Origin: Microbotryum violaceum
Taxonomy: Eukaryota
Length of the DNA stretch: 64,000 nt
Assembly: GCA_001244265.2 (NCBI GenBank)
Contig: CDLV01000011.1
Location: forward strand, 496,001 to 560,000
Direction: 5' to 3'
Part shown: piece after piece, positions 58,356-63,539 of the stretch
How the letters are laid out: every line of letters begins with the position of its first letter
How positions within the stretch are numbered: the first letter of the stretch is position 1
Notes under the pieces: generated by a model
Databases searched by the model: none
What the model saw: the letters and a program-made list of their open reading frames with translations, nothing else
What the model was told of the DNA's origin: nothing
Program-made: the position numbers and the translations under genes

Positions 58356-59177
58356 CTGTGGCGAATAAAGTGTGAATTAAGGTAAGAGTCAGGTCAGCAT
58401 TGACGCCGGGGTGTTTTGCCAGTGAATAAAGGGGGTCGGATCGAGATCGGTCGTGCACGGGTCGGTTTTCCCGGGTAAACGGCCGCCGTCCTCGTGCATC
58501 GTAATGGCATGGTGAGACGCGGAAAGTTTCGAGGGGTTATATTCGAGGCTTTGGTCTGCCCAGCGTGGCTTCCCGCGGTCGATGGGATGGAGACTCGGAG
58601 TCGTGGGCGAATCGAATCACGTCGCATCGTCGCCAAATGCTCGAACTTCGCAGACGCGTCGCTCACGCCGACAAATTTGATCCTCCGCAAAGACAGACAC
58701 GCGTCCAGGACATTGTACGGGTCCGACATCATGTGCCCGAGCGTACGCGTGTACCGGTGGCGATGGTTCCTCGACTCTGCCAAGCTCTGCGATGGAGTTG
58801 GGGTAGGGGAACGCACCTTGGGGGGGATGTAGGAGCTCCTAGTGGTGTACGAAGTGTCTAGAGTCAACGGACTGAGATGAACGATCCGATCCGAAAGCGA
58901 GCGAACAGGTGAACTCGGTTGCCCAGTGGGACGGGACAGGATGGGATGATGATGGACAAGTAGCGAGCGGCGAGCGCCGGCGGGAGAGGCACGCTCGATC
59001 GCGGTTCGTAATGGCTTGATTAGTAATCAGCCGTTCACCGCGGCGAAGGCGATAAGGAACGAGCCGAGCCGAGCCGAGTCAAGCAAGGTCCACGACGCTG
59101 CCTGGGTCCGTTCGGCTCTTGTTCTTGCATTCGCACTTGCACTTGCACTCGACAACGAGCGACGGCTGACCTCACCG

Positions 59178-60969
59178 ATGCCTTCGAGGCCGCTGATGTG
59201 CATCGCCACGGCCAAGCCCCTCTCGGCATGGTATGAGCGCACCTCTCTTCTGCGTGGGGCGGCCGTACGCCATCACTCGTCTACCTCCGAGTCGGCCGCC
59301 TCCAGCTCGTCCTCGACCTTGACTTCGCTCACCGGCACATTCTCTCTCGGCTCAGAGCCATCGTCCGCCACCTCCGATCATACTGCACTGTTATCTACAA
59401 GAGCAAAGGTGGGTGGTTCACCCTTCTCACTCGAGTTGGCCTGTCCTGTCCTTGCTCATCTACTCGACTGAACCCACAGGCACAGGCTCGTATCGCTCGA
59501 GTCGACTCGACCTCGCCTTCCAAGGTCTCGCCTTTTCTCATCGACTCGTTTGGTCGAAAACATGACTACTTGCGCATATCCTTGACGGAGAAGTGTAACC
59601 TGCGATGTGAGCTGGACTGCACTACACCGTGCATGGCTCAAACCCCAACCATACGTAGTTTATCGGATTCCGACGACTCGGCCGAACTTTGGGGCTAAGG
59701 AGCTCCACACTTTCAAAGCACCCTGCTGACTTGTATCCTACCGACCGACGATTAGGTACATACTGCATGCCCGAAACGGGTGTCAAGCTCTTGCCCCGCG
59801 ATGACCTGTTGACCACGGACGAGATCGAACGAACGGCCAAGATCTTCGTCACGAATGGCGTAACCAAGATTCGACTCACCGGCGGCGAACCTACCGTACG
59901 CAAAGATTTGATCGATGTTGTTAGTGAGTCGGTAAAACCCGTATCGGTATCGCACATCGAAAAGCTACTCGCTGATCGAAGAATCCTCGCGCGCAGCCCG
60001 ACTCGGTCGACTACCCCTCGACTCCCTGGGTATGACCTCCAACGGCATTTCCCTCAAGAGACGACTTCCGCAGCTCGTCGAGGCCGGCCTTACTCACCTC
60101 AACCTGTCGCTTGATACGCTCGATCCATTCAAGTACGAGCTCATGACGAGACGGAGAGGCTTCTCAGCCGTCATGGAATCGCTTCAAGTCGCTCGGGGGT
60201 TGGCCAGTCAGGGGCTCAAGACCAAGATCAATGTCGTCGTCATCAGAGGTGAGGACAAAGCTCTAAAGACTGAGCACAGAGCGCAATATCTCATTAACTT
60301 CCTCTCCTTCGTCATTCCACAGGGCTCAACGACGACGAGGTCCCACACTTTGTTGAATTGATCAAGGACATGGACATTACCGTCCGCTTTATCGAATATA
60401 TGCCCTTCGAAGGTCAGTACGAGGGACGCGGCTCAGACTCAAAGGAAGTAGCTCATCGCTTGATCCTCCATCCCATCGCCCAGACAACCGATGGTCAACC
60501 ACCAAACTCGTTCCCTCTGCCCAGCTCGTAGCCAAATTACAAACGATCCATCCGACCCTTGAGAAGCTCATCGACCCCCATAGCGATACGACAAGATCAT
60601 GGCGAGTACCCGGGTATCGAGGCAAGGTCGGCTTCATCAGTTCCATGTCGGACCATTTTTGTGGGGAATGCTCGAGGTTGAGGATCGGGGCCGATGGTCG
60701 AGTCAAGGTAAGCTAGTCCCATACCTTCATTCGAAGCTTACTTCGCAAACTTACTCACTGTTGATGCACTTTCCTAGGTTTGCCTCTTCGGCCCTCCCGT
60801 GCTATCCCTCCGACCTCTCCTTCGATCCCCCGAAACAACAGACCAAGACCTGATGGAATCTGTCGGCCGTGCTGTTTGGGGCAAGAAATTCGCTCACAAC
60901 GGCTTAGGTGGAGCAGAGGGTATCAGGGAGAATGGCAAGATGGGTCCGATGGTTGGTATTGGTGGATGA
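59178..60969 (+). CDS. MOCS1A: GTP 3',8-cyclase (MOCS1A/MoaA, radical SAM), spliced
   Basis: [66 protein letters not shown], terminal PMVGIGG*. Confidence 0.96.
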
Positions 60970-61000
60970 GATGTAGAGGGGCGCGAGGTGGATCTTTCGA

Positions 61001-61804
61001 ATGGTCGGAGAATTCGGAGTGGAAGTGAGTGCATTGCGTTCGCTTTCGGAGGACAACCGTGTTGGCCGTGTTGATTCAGTTCCTGACGCGCTGTGGGCCG
61101 AATGGATAGCTTTCAATCCGAATTGGCTCAGACCACAAAGACCTCGGCAACCCCTCTTTGCAAGAGTACCGCTACACCTCTTGGCTCGATCGACCCCGTA
61201 TGCTCCCCGTCTTGCCACTCGCCTCTTCTCATATTCGGTTCGATCCAACCATGCGGAGGATGATTCGAAGCCCGTGGACACGCTCACACACATCGACTCC
61301 CGAACGGGCAAAGCATCCATGGTATCCGTCTCTTCCAAAGCCATCACTTTCCGATCCGCCACGGCTGTCGGTCGGATTCGCTTGAACGAACAAGCTTGGT
61401 CTCTCATCGATTTCAGTACCACCTCAACCGACCAAGTGGACCGTTCCTCCCCTCCGACTATGCGCACCAAAAAAGGCGACGTCCTGACAATCGCCCACCT
61501 AGCCGGTCTCATGGCGACCAAACAAACCTCTACCCTCATACCCCTCTGTCATCCCCTCCTCTTAACCAGCATCAAACTCACCCTCGAACCTCTCTTCGAA
61601 AGCACCTCGATTCAAATCACCTGTCGAGTCGAATGTGAGGGTAAAACCGGGGTCGAGATGGAGGCTTTGATGGGGTGTCAGGTCGCTTTGTTGACGGTTT
61701 GGGATATGTGTAAGGCCGTGGCGGGGAGGGATATGGTTATTGAGGGGGTGATGGTGGTGGAGAAGAGTGGGGGGAGGAGTGGGGATTGGAAGAGGGAAGA
61801 CTGA
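61001..61804 (+). CDS. MOCS1B: cPMP synthase (MOCS1B/MoaC); second cistron, 5' end depends on splicing
   Basis: LTHID..GKASMVSVSSK, KKGDVLTIAHLAG, LIPLCHP, GKTGVEMEAL, WDMCKAV, EKSGGRSG. Confidence 0.95.
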   Translation: MVGEFGVEVSALRSLSEDNRVGRVDSVPDALWAEWIAFNPNWLRPQRPRQPLFARVPLHLLARSTPYAPRLATRLFSYSVRSNHAEDDSKPVDTLTHIDSRTGKASMVSVSSKAITFRSATAVGRIRLNEQAWSLIDFSTTSTDQVDRSSPPTMRTKKGDVLTIAHLAGLMATKQTSTLIPLCHPLLLTSIKLTLEPLFESTSIQITCRVECEGKTGVEMEALMGCQVALLTVWDMCKAVAGRDMVIEGVMVVEKSGGRSGDWKRED

Positions 61805-61930
61805 AGGATGTAATCTCTTGTATGCGATGGACTGTGATGTTGTCAACTCTCGAGTATTATAAGACAAGCAATTTCATTACAGAGAAACCTAGAACGTAAG
61901 ACAACGCAACCACTACGGACTATCTTCAGC

Positions 61931-63539
61931 TCAAGGCGCCCTCCCCAATACGATCCTCCTTCTCACCAACGCCGCCAGCGCCGTCAACACCAACACCTTT
62001 GCCCAAAGTCTCTTGGGACTCCAATACTTGATCGTCGCACCCAGGATCAAGCCCGCGTCCTTGATCTTCCTCTCCAACTTGATACTCGCAATAGCCCGGT
62101 TACCAAACTCGGCGTAATAACCTTCCGGACCGATCGAGGTCGCTTCGAAAGGGATGGCGAGAATTCCGTTCGCATCGATGGCGACTTGGTATCCATGGAA
62201 AGAAGGGTCCGAAGCGGATTTTAGCATGCCTGCTACGACGTCTTCAATCTTGCCCAAAGGGATACCGAAGAGACCTGCGCGGTTCAAAGGCGCGATGATA
62301 CTGGTGTCGATGAACCAAGGGCAGATGATGTTGCTGCGGATGTTCGCGGCTTCACAGTCGTAGCTGAGAGGTTGGATAGGACCATCAGCTGCTGAACATC
62401 GACACAAATAGAGGCCTCGGCTGAAGATTATAATTGAACTCACTAAATGGATCGGAAGAAGCCCAGAATCCCATGCTTGGCCATCCCGTACATCGGACCT
62501 TTGGGCAACCCATTCTGCGACGCCATCGACCCAAGGAAGACGAGCGCCTTGGACTTGTTCTTCAAGTTGCGCGCCAAGTGGTAGAATCCGATACGGGCGG
62601 TGTACATCGCTCCGAGGAGGTTGACTTCGATCGTCGTTAGGACGGGTTCCTATTGGGGATGATAAAGGAGGATCAGCACGTCACTTTAGACAGCATAAGT
62701 TCAGATGGTGGATGAAATTTCCTCACCTTGAGCTTGCCCTTGGAATCGAATTCATCATGCATCAACTCGCCACATTCACCCACACCAGCATTCGCAACGA
62801 CGACGTCAATCACCCCATGGTGTTTGATCGCGAAATCGAACATTTCGATCTGCGAATCCCACGAAGCGGTGTTGCACGGTTTCGGGTACACCTTGACGAG
62901 GCCGCCGTTGGTTTGGATCCTGTGACCGGTCTCTTGGACGGCTTTGATGTTTAGGTCAGAGATGACAACGTGGGCGCTGTAGAGTTTAGAGAGTTTGTAT
63001 AATCCGATCAGTAAAAGATTTGGAAGTTTGATGCTGAAAATGCGATGATGGTGGAACAACTGACCCATAGCCCGCGGCTTTCTCGGCGAAAGCTCGGCCA
63101 AACCCAGACCCGGCGCCTGAGCCGGCGAAGACATCAGATGATCCGATCCGGGGTAAAGGCGAAGGCAAACGCGACAAGGGCGACAAGAGATCAGTTACCC
63201 GCGAAGCTAATTTTCACAAGAACATAACTTCCCTCTCGTGCACTTACCGGTGATGACGACGGTCTTGCCCTTGAGGTTATGACCGGTCTTCTCTGTCGAG
63301 GCCGCGTCGATCGCCTCGGCATGCTTTTGAATCGCCGCCCTGAATCCACCATGAGCGGCTTCGTACGCCCCAAGACTAGGGTTGGACTTCTCGAGGTCTT
63401 GTTCTGCGATCGTGGTGACGCCTTCGACTTCGGCGGGACTGGATGATCGGGTAGCGCTGGAGCCGGACCCGGTCGAAGTGGGGGCGGCACCACTGGAGGA
63501 GGATGACGTCTTGGCTTTGGAGGAAGTGGGCTGGGACAT
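61931..63539 (-). CDS. Short-chain dehydrogenase/reductase, spliced
   Basis: LKGKTVVIT/GAGSGFG, IDVVVANAGV, VNL, LGSMAS, MYGMAKHGILG, NIICPWF. Confidence 0.92.

What the first reader, a model, noticed from the sequence alone, without database searches (positions are those of the whole stretch)
60900..61804. Animal-style bicistronic MOCS1A-stop-MOCS1B locus in a basidiomycete
Seen: MOCS1A ends PMVGIGG-TGA (60967-60969), leaving the free C-terminal GG that MoaA needs, and MOCS1B follows with no room for a promoter. The frame after TGA stays open (DVEGREVDLSNGRRIRSG). A predicted 85-nt intron (61025 gtgagt...cctgac...atag 61109) joins it in frame to MOCS1B (A|CT TTC AAT), so one stop codon separates the two enzymes. 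Upstream phase-1 donors (G|GTATTG at 60956; also 60920 and 60908) spliced to the same acceptor would delete GG-stop and give an in-frame A-B fusion. Intron retention instead leaves an ATG at 61001 in the B frame. Established: vertebrate and invertebrate MOCS1 is bicistronic and uses no-nonsense splicing, whereas Aspergillus cnxABC is described as a fused ORF. Inference: this fungus makes both enzymes from one locus by alternative splicing, stop readthrough or reinitiation.
Basis: partly seen in the sequence, partly recalled or inferred. Interest (0 to 1): 0.85.

Follow-up and report, generated by a model that had tools for sequence, protein, structure and literature searches.

The report
Fungal MOCS1-type two-enzyme gene
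A smut-fungus gene carries the first two molybdenum-cofactor enzymes on one spliced transcript with a stop codon between them, a layout already known from humans and Neurospora, so it is real but not a new kind of system.

Summary
A seven-exon MoaA-type gene (427 aa) ends ...MVGIGG-TGA at 60967-60969. A complete MoaC domain follows on the same strand. The main RNA therefore reads A, TGA, 18 codons, then linker and MoaC in one frame. A DNA-type run shows the same TGA and no splices.

The interpretation needs trimming. Alternative splicing at such a locus is already described in a fungus (Neurospora nit-7) and in humans (MOCS1 types I-III). The protein is 100% identical to annotated Microbotryum models. 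Across fungi, 112 of the 120 listed long MoaC relatives are fused A-B models, and all 11 A-only models end in GG.

In six related metagenome loci GG-TGA and a downstream donor recur. The "in frame through one stop" relation does not: three are out of phase, two have TGA-TAA, one is ambiguous. No relative has a usable ATG for MoaC.

Best reading (about 0.6): the main mRNA makes active MoaA. A minor upstream phase-1 donor joined to 61110 makes an A-B fusion that supplies MoaC. That isoform was not seen. Verdict: new member of a known kind, interest 0.3.

The parts
59178..59408 (+). MoaA-type (MOCS1A-like) exon 1 from ATG 59178; N-terminus with 5 R+K and 2 D+E in the first 40 residues
   Evidence: the contigs of X11 and X12 begin at 59114 and 59111
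59409..59479 (+). intron 1 (GT..AG, 71 nt)
   Evidence: joint 59406>59478 read with cut +2; sequence
59480..59606 (+). exon 2 (start of the radical-SAM cysteine motif region)
59607..59755 (+). intron 2 (149 nt)
59756..59923 (+). exon 3 (Radical_SAM)
59924..59996 (+). intron 3 (73 nt)
59997..60248 (+). exon 4 (Radical_SAM)
60249..60322 (+). intron 4 (74 nt)
   Evidence: cut +2
60323..60412 (+). exon 5
60413..60483 (+). intron 5 (71 nt)
   Evidence: cut +2
60484..60707 (+). exon 6 (Mob_synth_C); ends in phase 0
   Evidence: exon lengths sum to 1092 nt
60708..60777 (+). intron 6 (70 nt)
   Evidence: cut +2
60778..61024 (+). exon 7: MoaA C-terminus, double glycine at 60961-60966, TGA at 60967-60969, then 55 nt after the stop; holds weak phase-1 GT sites at 60908, 60920, 60944, 60956 and 60962
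60967..60969 (+). TGA stop of the MoaA-type reading frame
   Evidence: no differing letter in X7, X11 or X12
61025..61109 (+). intron 7 (85 nt): GTGAGT donor, CTGAC at 61083-61087, AG at 61108-61109; removed in the contigs
   Evidence: joint 61024>61110 in X11 and X12, absent from X7
61110..61282 (+). start of exon 8: linker with no in-frame ATG; a 37-residue core has 7 R+K and 0 D+E (presequence-like composition)
   Evidence: conserved in the Microbotryum intermedium model P0003 from the first residue after the acceptor
61319..61774 (+). MoaC (MOCS1B-like) domain
   Evidence: PF01967, E 4e-47, residues 115-266 of the frame that opens at 60977
61802..61804 (+). TGA stop of the MoaC frame

Best explanation
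This is the fungal counterpart of human MOCS1 and Neurospora nit-7: one locus for both enzymes that make cyclic pyranopterin monophosphate.

Shown: the main mRNA has eight exons. Its first reading frame is a 427-aa MoaA-type GTP 3',8-cyclase that ends in the free double glycine, with TGA inside exon 7. An 85-nt intron 58 nt after the stop is spliced out. Exon 8 carries a linker and the MoaC domain. This matches the human 'type I' bicistronic form.

Inferred: only MoaA is translated from that mRNA. MoaC would come from a minor isoform in which a weak phase-1 donor upstream of GG-TGA (60962, 60956, 60944, 60920 or 60908) is joined to the same acceptor at 61110. That gives an A-B fusion without the terminal GG. 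The fusion would be imported into mitochondria and cut in the arginine-rich linker to release MoaC, as reported for NIT-7AB and MOCS1AB.
For: -: seven GT..AG joints lie on one contig in each of X11 and X12, including 61024>61110. None is present in X7.
- Radical_SAM, Mob_synth_C and MoaC domains are all present.
- after splicing, no ATG is in the MoaC frame before 61319, which already lies at the start of the MoaC Pfam match. ATG 61001 then reads the 61110-61385 frame.
- the M. intermedium model P0003 continues in protein-level similarity from the residue right after the acceptor (AFNPN...). Translation therefore has to enter exon 8 from upstream.
- six distinct related metagenome junctions all have [VS]IGG-TGA, MoaC 219-379 nt downstream and a donor-like site 38-90 nt after the stop. 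All six also have at least one phase-1 donor before the stop that joins in frame to an acceptor with an open MoaC frame. These are GTGCGT at -56 in 4 loci, GTGCGG at -56 in 1, and GTGGGT at -5 in 1.
- in the 10 annotated fusions cut just before GG, the next residue is A, V, D or E in 10 of 10. That is what a G|GT phase-1 donor gives.
- four uninterrupted A-B ORFs of 576-605 aa (P0066, P0076, P0100, P0102) lie on contigs of only 2099-2489 nt. This fits spliced fusion mRNAs in other basidiomycetes. It is weak support, because the origin of those contigs was not checked.
- Literature: PMC7232280 (abstract and passages) and preprint 10.1101/429183 (passages) show this logic experimentally in N. 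crassa and in human cells.
Against: - The fusion junction was not seen. X11 and X12 show only the 61025 donor. Contigs drop rare variants, and no raw reads were available.
- The window's upstream donors are poor, matching 1-2 of 4 consensus positions.
- The only two 100%-identical fused proteins in the database are NCBI gene models. Their junction (60962 to 61080) is not the one in the contigs.
- All fused models in relatives are predictions, and they disagree on the junction: 33 keep GG, 32 cut after the first G, 10 cut before GG and 37 cut further upstream.
- The same contigs run on past 62100 into the neighbouring region. Contig continuity alone therefore does not prove a single transcript.
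Confidence: 0.62

Rival explanations
1. Programmed readthrough of the single TGA on the main spliced mRNA makes an A-GG-linker-B polyprotein. That polyprotein is the source of MoaC.
For: In the spliced RNA of the contigs, the MoaA frame, the 18 codons after TGA and the MoaC frame are continuous. TGA ends the MoaA frame in 7 of 7 loci compared.
Against: - The relation has a chance probability of about 0.20.
- It is not conserved. In L001, L008 and L002 the good downstream donors are in phase 2, 2 and 0, while every usable acceptor needs phase 1.
- L003 and L007 have tandem TGA TAA, and L009 is ambiguous.
- Indels of 2 and 5 nt separate close relatives between the stop and the donor. That pattern fits untranslated sequence.
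- The base after the stop is G here. The C-starting context recalled as leaky (from memory, not from a call) is absent.
Confidence: 0.08
2. MoaC is translated on its own. The routes would be a minor intron-retaining or internally started transcript using ATG 61001, a non-AUG start in the linker, or ATG 61319.
For: The frame 60977-61804 is open through the intron, and ATG 61001 is in it. Several annotators split the locus into A-only and B-only genes in Sporobolomyces and Rhodotorula.
Against: - The intron is removed in both contigs, which puts ATG 61001 out of frame.
- In L001 and L008 the MoaC frame is closed inside the putative intron. None of the six relatives has an ATG in an open MoaC frame between the stop and the donor.
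- Of 7 NCBI B-only models inspected, 3 start at the methionine inside the MoaC domain and the rest start at unrelated positions.
- Ribosomes would first have to pass a 427-codon ORF, then ATG 60971 and ATG 61001.
- In N. crassa a separately expressed NIT-7B was not imported into mitochondria (PMC7232280 passages).
Confidence: 0.12
3. The public fused gene model (donor 60962 joined to acceptor 61080, giving ...MVGI|VPDALWAEWIAF...) is the true and only product, and the stop is irrelevant.
For: P0001 and P0002 are annotated this way. GT and AG are present at those places.
Against: The contigs of X11 and X12 use 61025>61110 instead and keep GG-TGA. No CTRAY branch motif lies in the 32 nt before 61080, whereas CTGAC precedes 61109. 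The M. intermedium model uses the equivalent of the 61110 acceptor. A fusion-only gene would leave no MoaA with a free GG. The preprint 10.1101/429183 (passages) reports the GG as essential, citing earlier work.
Confidence: 0.05

Closest known systems
Human MOCS1 (splice types I, II, III)
   Same: MoaA-type ORF ending in GG plus stop inside the last A exon. An intron separates that exon from the exon that carries a linker plus MoaC. The main form is bicistronic, with only A expected to be translated. The linker has presequence-like composition (preprint 10.1101/429183 passages).
   Different: The fusion isoforms (types II and III) are documented in humans but were not observed here. Skipping exon 7 entirely (type III) would be out of frame here, because exon 6 ends in phase 0 and the acceptor needs phase 1. 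Here the post-stop frame happens to be continuous with MoaC.
Neurospora crassa nit-7
   Same: A fungal single locus. GG plus stop gives the active A protein. Removing them by splicing gives the AB fusion, from which B is released after mitochondrial import (PMC7232280).
   Different: nit-7 has two exons, and GG-stop lies inside the one intron, so the A message is the unspliced RNA. Here the A message is itself spliced at a donor 58 nt after the stop. The fusion would need an alternative upstream donor, not simply splicing versus retention.
Aspergillus nidulans cnxABC
   Same: One fungal locus with both catalytic domains.
   Different: Known to me here only through one sentence in PMC7232280, which says it was discussed as a bicistronic transcript with both domains translated separately. 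The primary papers were not seen.
Plant cnx2 / cnx3
   Same: The same two enzymes and a mitochondrial first step (PMC7232280 and PMC9370521 passages).
   Different: Two separate genes, so no stop-bridging problem. The MoaC-only proteins of 429-483 aa in Ustilaginomycotina may be a fungal parallel. This was not followed up.

Membership tests
MOCS1 / nit-7 type single-locus cPMP synthase gene | Upstream ORF is a MoaA-type radical-SAM enzyme (Radical_SAM plus Mob_synth_C) | tested here: met
   PF04055 on exons 3 and 4 (E 4e-7 and 1.5e-8); PF06463 on exon 6 (E 2.8e-16)
MOCS1 / nit-7 type single-locus cPMP synthase gene | The A reading frame ends in a double glycine directly followed by a stop | tested here: met
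   Also 6 of 6 related loci and 11 of 11 A-only models
MOCS1 / nit-7 type single-locus cPMP synthase gene | MoaC domain downstream on the same strand and joined to the A exon in RNA | tested here: met
   (PF01967, E 4e-47); joint 61024>61110 in X11 and X12
MOCS1 / nit-7 type single-locus cPMP synthase gene | A splice form that removes GG-stop and fuses A to B in frame | tested here: inconclusive
   Not present in the contigs of X11 and X12, but contigs drop rare forms. In-frame candidate donors exist. Raw reads were not available.
MOCS1 / nit-7 type single-locus cPMP synthase gene | Linker before MoaC that mediates mitochondrial import or cleavage | tested here: inconclusive
   Composition only: the 37-residue core has 7 R+K and 0 D+E. 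An HLL ... R.FS[ST] pattern recurs in relatives. No targeting predictor or experiment was available.
MOCS1 / nit-7 type single-locus cPMP synthase gene | Both activities are needed for cPMP synthesis in vivo | not testable with these tools
   needs genetics or biochemistry
Programmed stop-codon readthrough gene | The in-frame extension beyond the stop is conserved in relatives | tested here: not met
   out of phase in 3 loci, tandem stops in 2, ambiguous in 1; non-triplet indels lie between the stop and the donor
Truly bicistronic mRNA with an independently translated second ORF (MOCS2-like) | An accessible start codon for the second ORF on the mature mRNA | tested here: not met
   in the spliced RNA the first in-frame ATG is 61319, at the start of the MoaC Pfam match; ATG 60971 and ATG 61001 precede it in other frames

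The most novel reading that the evidence does not exclude
In Microbotryum specifically, the main mRNA places MoaA and MoaC in one frame across a single UGA. Low-level readthrough, rather than alternative splicing, would supply MoaC as an A-GG-linker-B precursor. The A:B ratio would then be set by termination efficiency. This would be a lineage-specific, splicing-independent solution to the MOCS1 problem. The evidence does not exclude it: the frame is truly continuous in the observed RNA, the upstream donors here are unusually weak, and no fusion junction was seen.
Probability: 0.07. Interest if true: 0.65.

Novelty: new member of a known kind. Interest (0 to 1): 0.3.

Why it matters
The 'GG-stop, then MoaC' gene logic known from humans and one ascomycete is also present, at the RNA level, in a basidiomycete, with the human-like exon layout. 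This supports an old, shared origin in fungi and animals.

In practice it exposes inconsistent public annotation:
- The two Microbotryum models that are 100% identical to the window (P0001, P0002) are fusions with a junction the RNA-type contigs do not support.
- Those models lack the free GG that active MoaA is reported to need.
- In related yeasts the same locus is annotated either as a fusion or as an A-only gene plus a B-only gene, and 3 of the 7 NCBI B-only models inspected are truncated.

Pathway reconstructions and orthologue tables for molybdenum-cofactor synthesis in fungi inherit these errors.

Tried and rejected
- Whole genome: none is held for this window, so no genome-wide splice-site model or search for a second MoaC gene was possible.
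- The look-up of sequencing runs: no RNA holder listed. The kinds of X11, X12 and X7 are not on record. I infer that X11 and X12 derive from RNA only from the seven GT..AG skips that X7 lacks.
- X1 (guessed RNA) gave five short pieces at depth 3-4.2. One of them runs through intron 1 unspliced, and nothing lies beyond 60872, so it is uninformative.
- Alternative donors 60908-60962, acceptor 61080 and retention of intron 7 were not seen in any contig.
- Type III-like skipping of exon 7: rejected by arithmetic (phase 0 into an acceptor that needs phase 1; the resulting frame ends at 61385).
- Gray and Nicholls 2000 (PMC1369970) and Mayr 2020 JBC (PMC7062190) are not held. I used the preprint version and citations instead. 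Reference 7 of PMC7232280, the first nit-7 splice description, was not seen.
- Literature on a basidiomycete locus. One search (mocs1, bicistronic, fungi) found 6 papers. One search (molybdenum cofactor, basidiomycet, alternative splicing, cpmp) found 19 papers with 3 or more terms, and the 12 listed all have 0 occurrences of 'basidiomycet'. One search (cnxabc) found 4 papers. By title or abstract none describes a basidiomycete locus. Subscription journals are largely outside the library, and supplements were closed.
- The search of earlier findings returned nothing.
- Pfam on the long minus-strand frame 61934-62680 returned nothing.
- The acceptor in the L003/L007/L009 clade could not be fixed. 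The MoaC frame is open throughout, and AG sites of every phase exist. Only their tandem stops were used as evidence.
Full report
**What is in the sequence**

- A frame from 60778 ends ...[13 protein letters not shown], with TGA at 60967-60969.
- The same frame continues open for 18 codons to a GTGAGT at 61025.
- CTGAC lies at 61083-61087 and an AG at 61108-61109.
- A second frame, open from 60977 to the TGA at 61802-61804, contains a complete MoaC domain (PF01967, E 4e-47, profile 1-136 of 136).
- Upstream exon-sized frames match Radical_SAM and Mob_synth_C, the two domains of MoaA-type GTP 3',8-cyclases.

**RNA-type evidence**

No run is on record as RNA. When four runs were laid on 58900-62100, X11 and X12 (two runs of one study) each held a single contig of 3588 and 3610 nt. 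Each contig starts at 59114 or 59111 and shows seven GT..AG skips. X7, a DNA-like run from another study, covered the region without any skip.

After the '+2' shifts the tool indicates, the introns are:
- 59409-59479
- 59607-59755
- 59924-59996
- 60249-60322
- 60413-60483
- 60708-60777
- 61025-61109

The exon lengths give a 427-aa MoaA-type protein from ATG 59178. This matches the A part of the public model P0002.

None of X7, X11 or X12 differs from the window at the TGA, so a sequencing error is excluded. X7 may be the window's own source sample.

One caveat applies. The same contigs continue about 1.2 kb past 62100 into the neighbouring region, so contig continuity is not proof of a single transcript. 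The link between A and B rests on the two splice joints that flank exon 7 (60707|60778 and 61024|61110).

**Consequences for translation**

In the spliced RNA, the A frame, TGA, 18 codons and the linker-MoaC frame are continuous. ATG 61001, which is in the MoaC frame in genomic DNA, is shifted into the 61110-61385 frame by the splice. The first in-frame ATG for MoaC is then 61319, at the very start of the Pfam match. A conventional second start for MoaC therefore does not exist on the observed RNA.

Skipping exon 7 would be out of frame, because exon 6 ends in phase 0 and the acceptor needs phase 1. Phase-1 GT sites upstream of the stop exist at 60908, 60920, 60944, 60956 and 60962. They match only 1-2 of 4 donor consensus positions, against 4 of 4 for 61025.

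**Whose gene it is, and how relatives are annotated**

The MoaC-plus-linker exon is 100% identical to fused models from Microbotryum silenes-dioicae (P0001, 675 aa) and M. lychnidis-dioicae (P0002, 666 aa). It is 81% identical to M. intermedium (P0003).

Of the 120 best proteins longer than 403 aa, 112 carry Radical_SAM, Mob_synth_C and MoaC together. They come from Basidiomycota, Mucoromycota and Glomeromycota.

The Microbotryum models P0001 and P0002 join ...MVGI to VPDALWAEWIAF.... This corresponds to donor 60962 and acceptor 61080, a junction the contigs do not show. The M. intermedium model joins ...MVGI to AFNPN..., which is the equivalent of the 61110 acceptor.

Across 132 proteins:
- 11 are A-only, and all 11 end in GG.
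- 33 fusions keep GG.
- 32 fusions cut after the first G.
- 10 fusions cut before GG, and the next residue is A, V, D or E in all 10. That is what a G|GT phase-1 donor gives.
- 37 rows end the tail match further upstream (36 of them carry MoaC).
- 9 have no A tail.

In several Sporobolomyces and Rhodotorula genomes the same locus is split into adjacent A-only and B-only genes. Of the 7 NCBI B-only models inspected, 3 start at the methionine inside the MoaC domain. The annotation is therefore inconsistent, and the underlying GG-stop arrangement is general.

**Genomic DNA of relatives**

A scan of metagenome contigs with an alignment of the last A exon gave 11 loci with 6 distinct junctions. All six have [VS]IGG followed by TGA, and MoaC 219-379 nt downstream on the same strand. 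All six have a donor-like site 38-90 nt after the stop, often inside a conserved GC(A)ACAG|GT motif. A post-stop intron therefore looks like a class-wide feature. It is predicted, not RNA-verified, in these loci.

The in-frame relation is not conserved.
- In L001 and L008 the good downstream donors are in phase 2, and the only acceptors with an open MoaC frame need phase 1.
- In L002 the donor is in phase 0, and the acceptors need phase 1 or 2.
- L003 and L007 have TGA TAA.
- L009 is ambiguous.

Close relatives differ by 2-nt and 5-nt indels between the stop and the donor. That pattern is typical of untranslated sequence.

In the window itself, 'no stop in 18 codons and matching phase' has a chance probability of about 0.20.

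No relative has an ATG in an open MoaC frame between the stop and the donor. In L001 and L008 that frame is closed inside the putative intron.

In contrast, every locus offers at least one phase-1 donor before the stop that joins in frame to an acceptor. These are GTGCGT at -56 in four loci, GTGCGG at -56 in one, and GTGGGT at -5 in one.

**What is known**

For human MOCS1 I read passages of the preprint 10.1101/429183.
- Type I mRNAs keep exon 9 with the double glycine and stop, are bicistronic and yield only MOCS1A.
- Type II lacks 15 nt of exon 9 and type III lacks all of it. Both give MOCS1AB.
- A 95-residue linker encoded at the start of exon 10 carries an internal targeting signal and a cleavage site.

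For Neurospora crassa nit-7 I read the abstract and passages of PMC7232280.
- The unspliced mRNA encodes NIT-7A, with the double glycine and stop inside the single intron.
- The spliced mRNA encodes NIT-7AB.
- NIT-7B is released after import, and a separately expressed NIT-7B was not imported.

The Microbotryum layout resembles the human one (a spliced bicistronic main form with an intron between the A and B exons) more than the Neurospora one (retention versus splicing of one intron). I found no description of a basidiomycete locus in the held library. That library omits most subscription journals.

**Most likely mechanism**

Shown: the main mRNA structure, the GG-TGA end of A, and the MoaC exon joined to it.

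Inferred: MoaA is translated from this mRNA. MoaC comes from a minor isoform that uses an upstream phase-1 donor and the 61110 acceptor. The fusion is imported and cut in the linker. The linker core has 7 R+K and no D+E over 37 residues. An HLL ... R.FS[ST] pattern recurs in relatives.

I put this at about 0.62. The alternatives are:
- independent translation of MoaC, about 0.12
- readthrough, about 0.08
- the public fused model as the sole product, about 0.05
- the remainder is unassigned

The main weakness is that the fusion junction was not seen, and the window's candidate donors are weak.

**Verdict**

This is a new member of a known kind (MOCS1/nit-7-type locus). Its value lies in annotation and in showing the human-like layout in Basidiomycota. 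Interest 0.3.

Noticed in passing
window 59607-59755 and 60962-61079: Public model P0001 (M. silenes-dioicae) carries residues translated from intron 2 ([16 protein letters not shown]) and lacks a Ser-rich stretch that is present in the window and in P0002. Both P0001 and P0002 use an A-B junction that the spliced contigs do not show.
   Followed up: partly
window 61805-62100 and beyond: The X11 and X12 contigs continue about 1.2 kb past 62100, beyond the MoaC stop, into a region whose long open frames are on the minus strand (for example 61931-62680). This is either overlapping convergent 3' ends or an assembly merge. Pfam found nothing on that frame.
   Followed up: partly
P0058, P0068, P0103: Ustilaginomycotina hits (Pseudozyma, Sporisorium, Melanopsichium) are MoaC-only proteins of 429-483 aa with a long acidic N-terminal extension. 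In that subphylum the two enzymes may be separate genes.
   Followed up: no
P0016: A 1223-aa Pseudohyphozyma model adds PF01794 and PF08030 in front of the A-B domains. It is probably two neighbouring genes merged by the predictor.
   Followed up: no
window 60967; L001 3684; L008 3693; L002 3430; L003 3699; L007 1600; L009 1886: The MoaA frame ends with TGA in 7 of 7 loci compared. Two of them (L003, L007) have TGA TAA in tandem.
   Followed up: partly
L003 3729-3745, L007 1632-1648, L009 1913-1929, L002 3509-3525: A GGCGCAACAG|GT-like motif after the stop is conserved at the DNA level across otherwise diverged loci. It is probably the exon end plus donor of the post-stop intron.
   Followed up: partly
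window 60967-61024: The stop lies 58 nt upstream of the last exon-exon junction, so the main mRNA could be open to junction-dependent mRNA decay. In relatives the distance is 38-90 nt, so no fixed rule is apparent.
   Followed up: no
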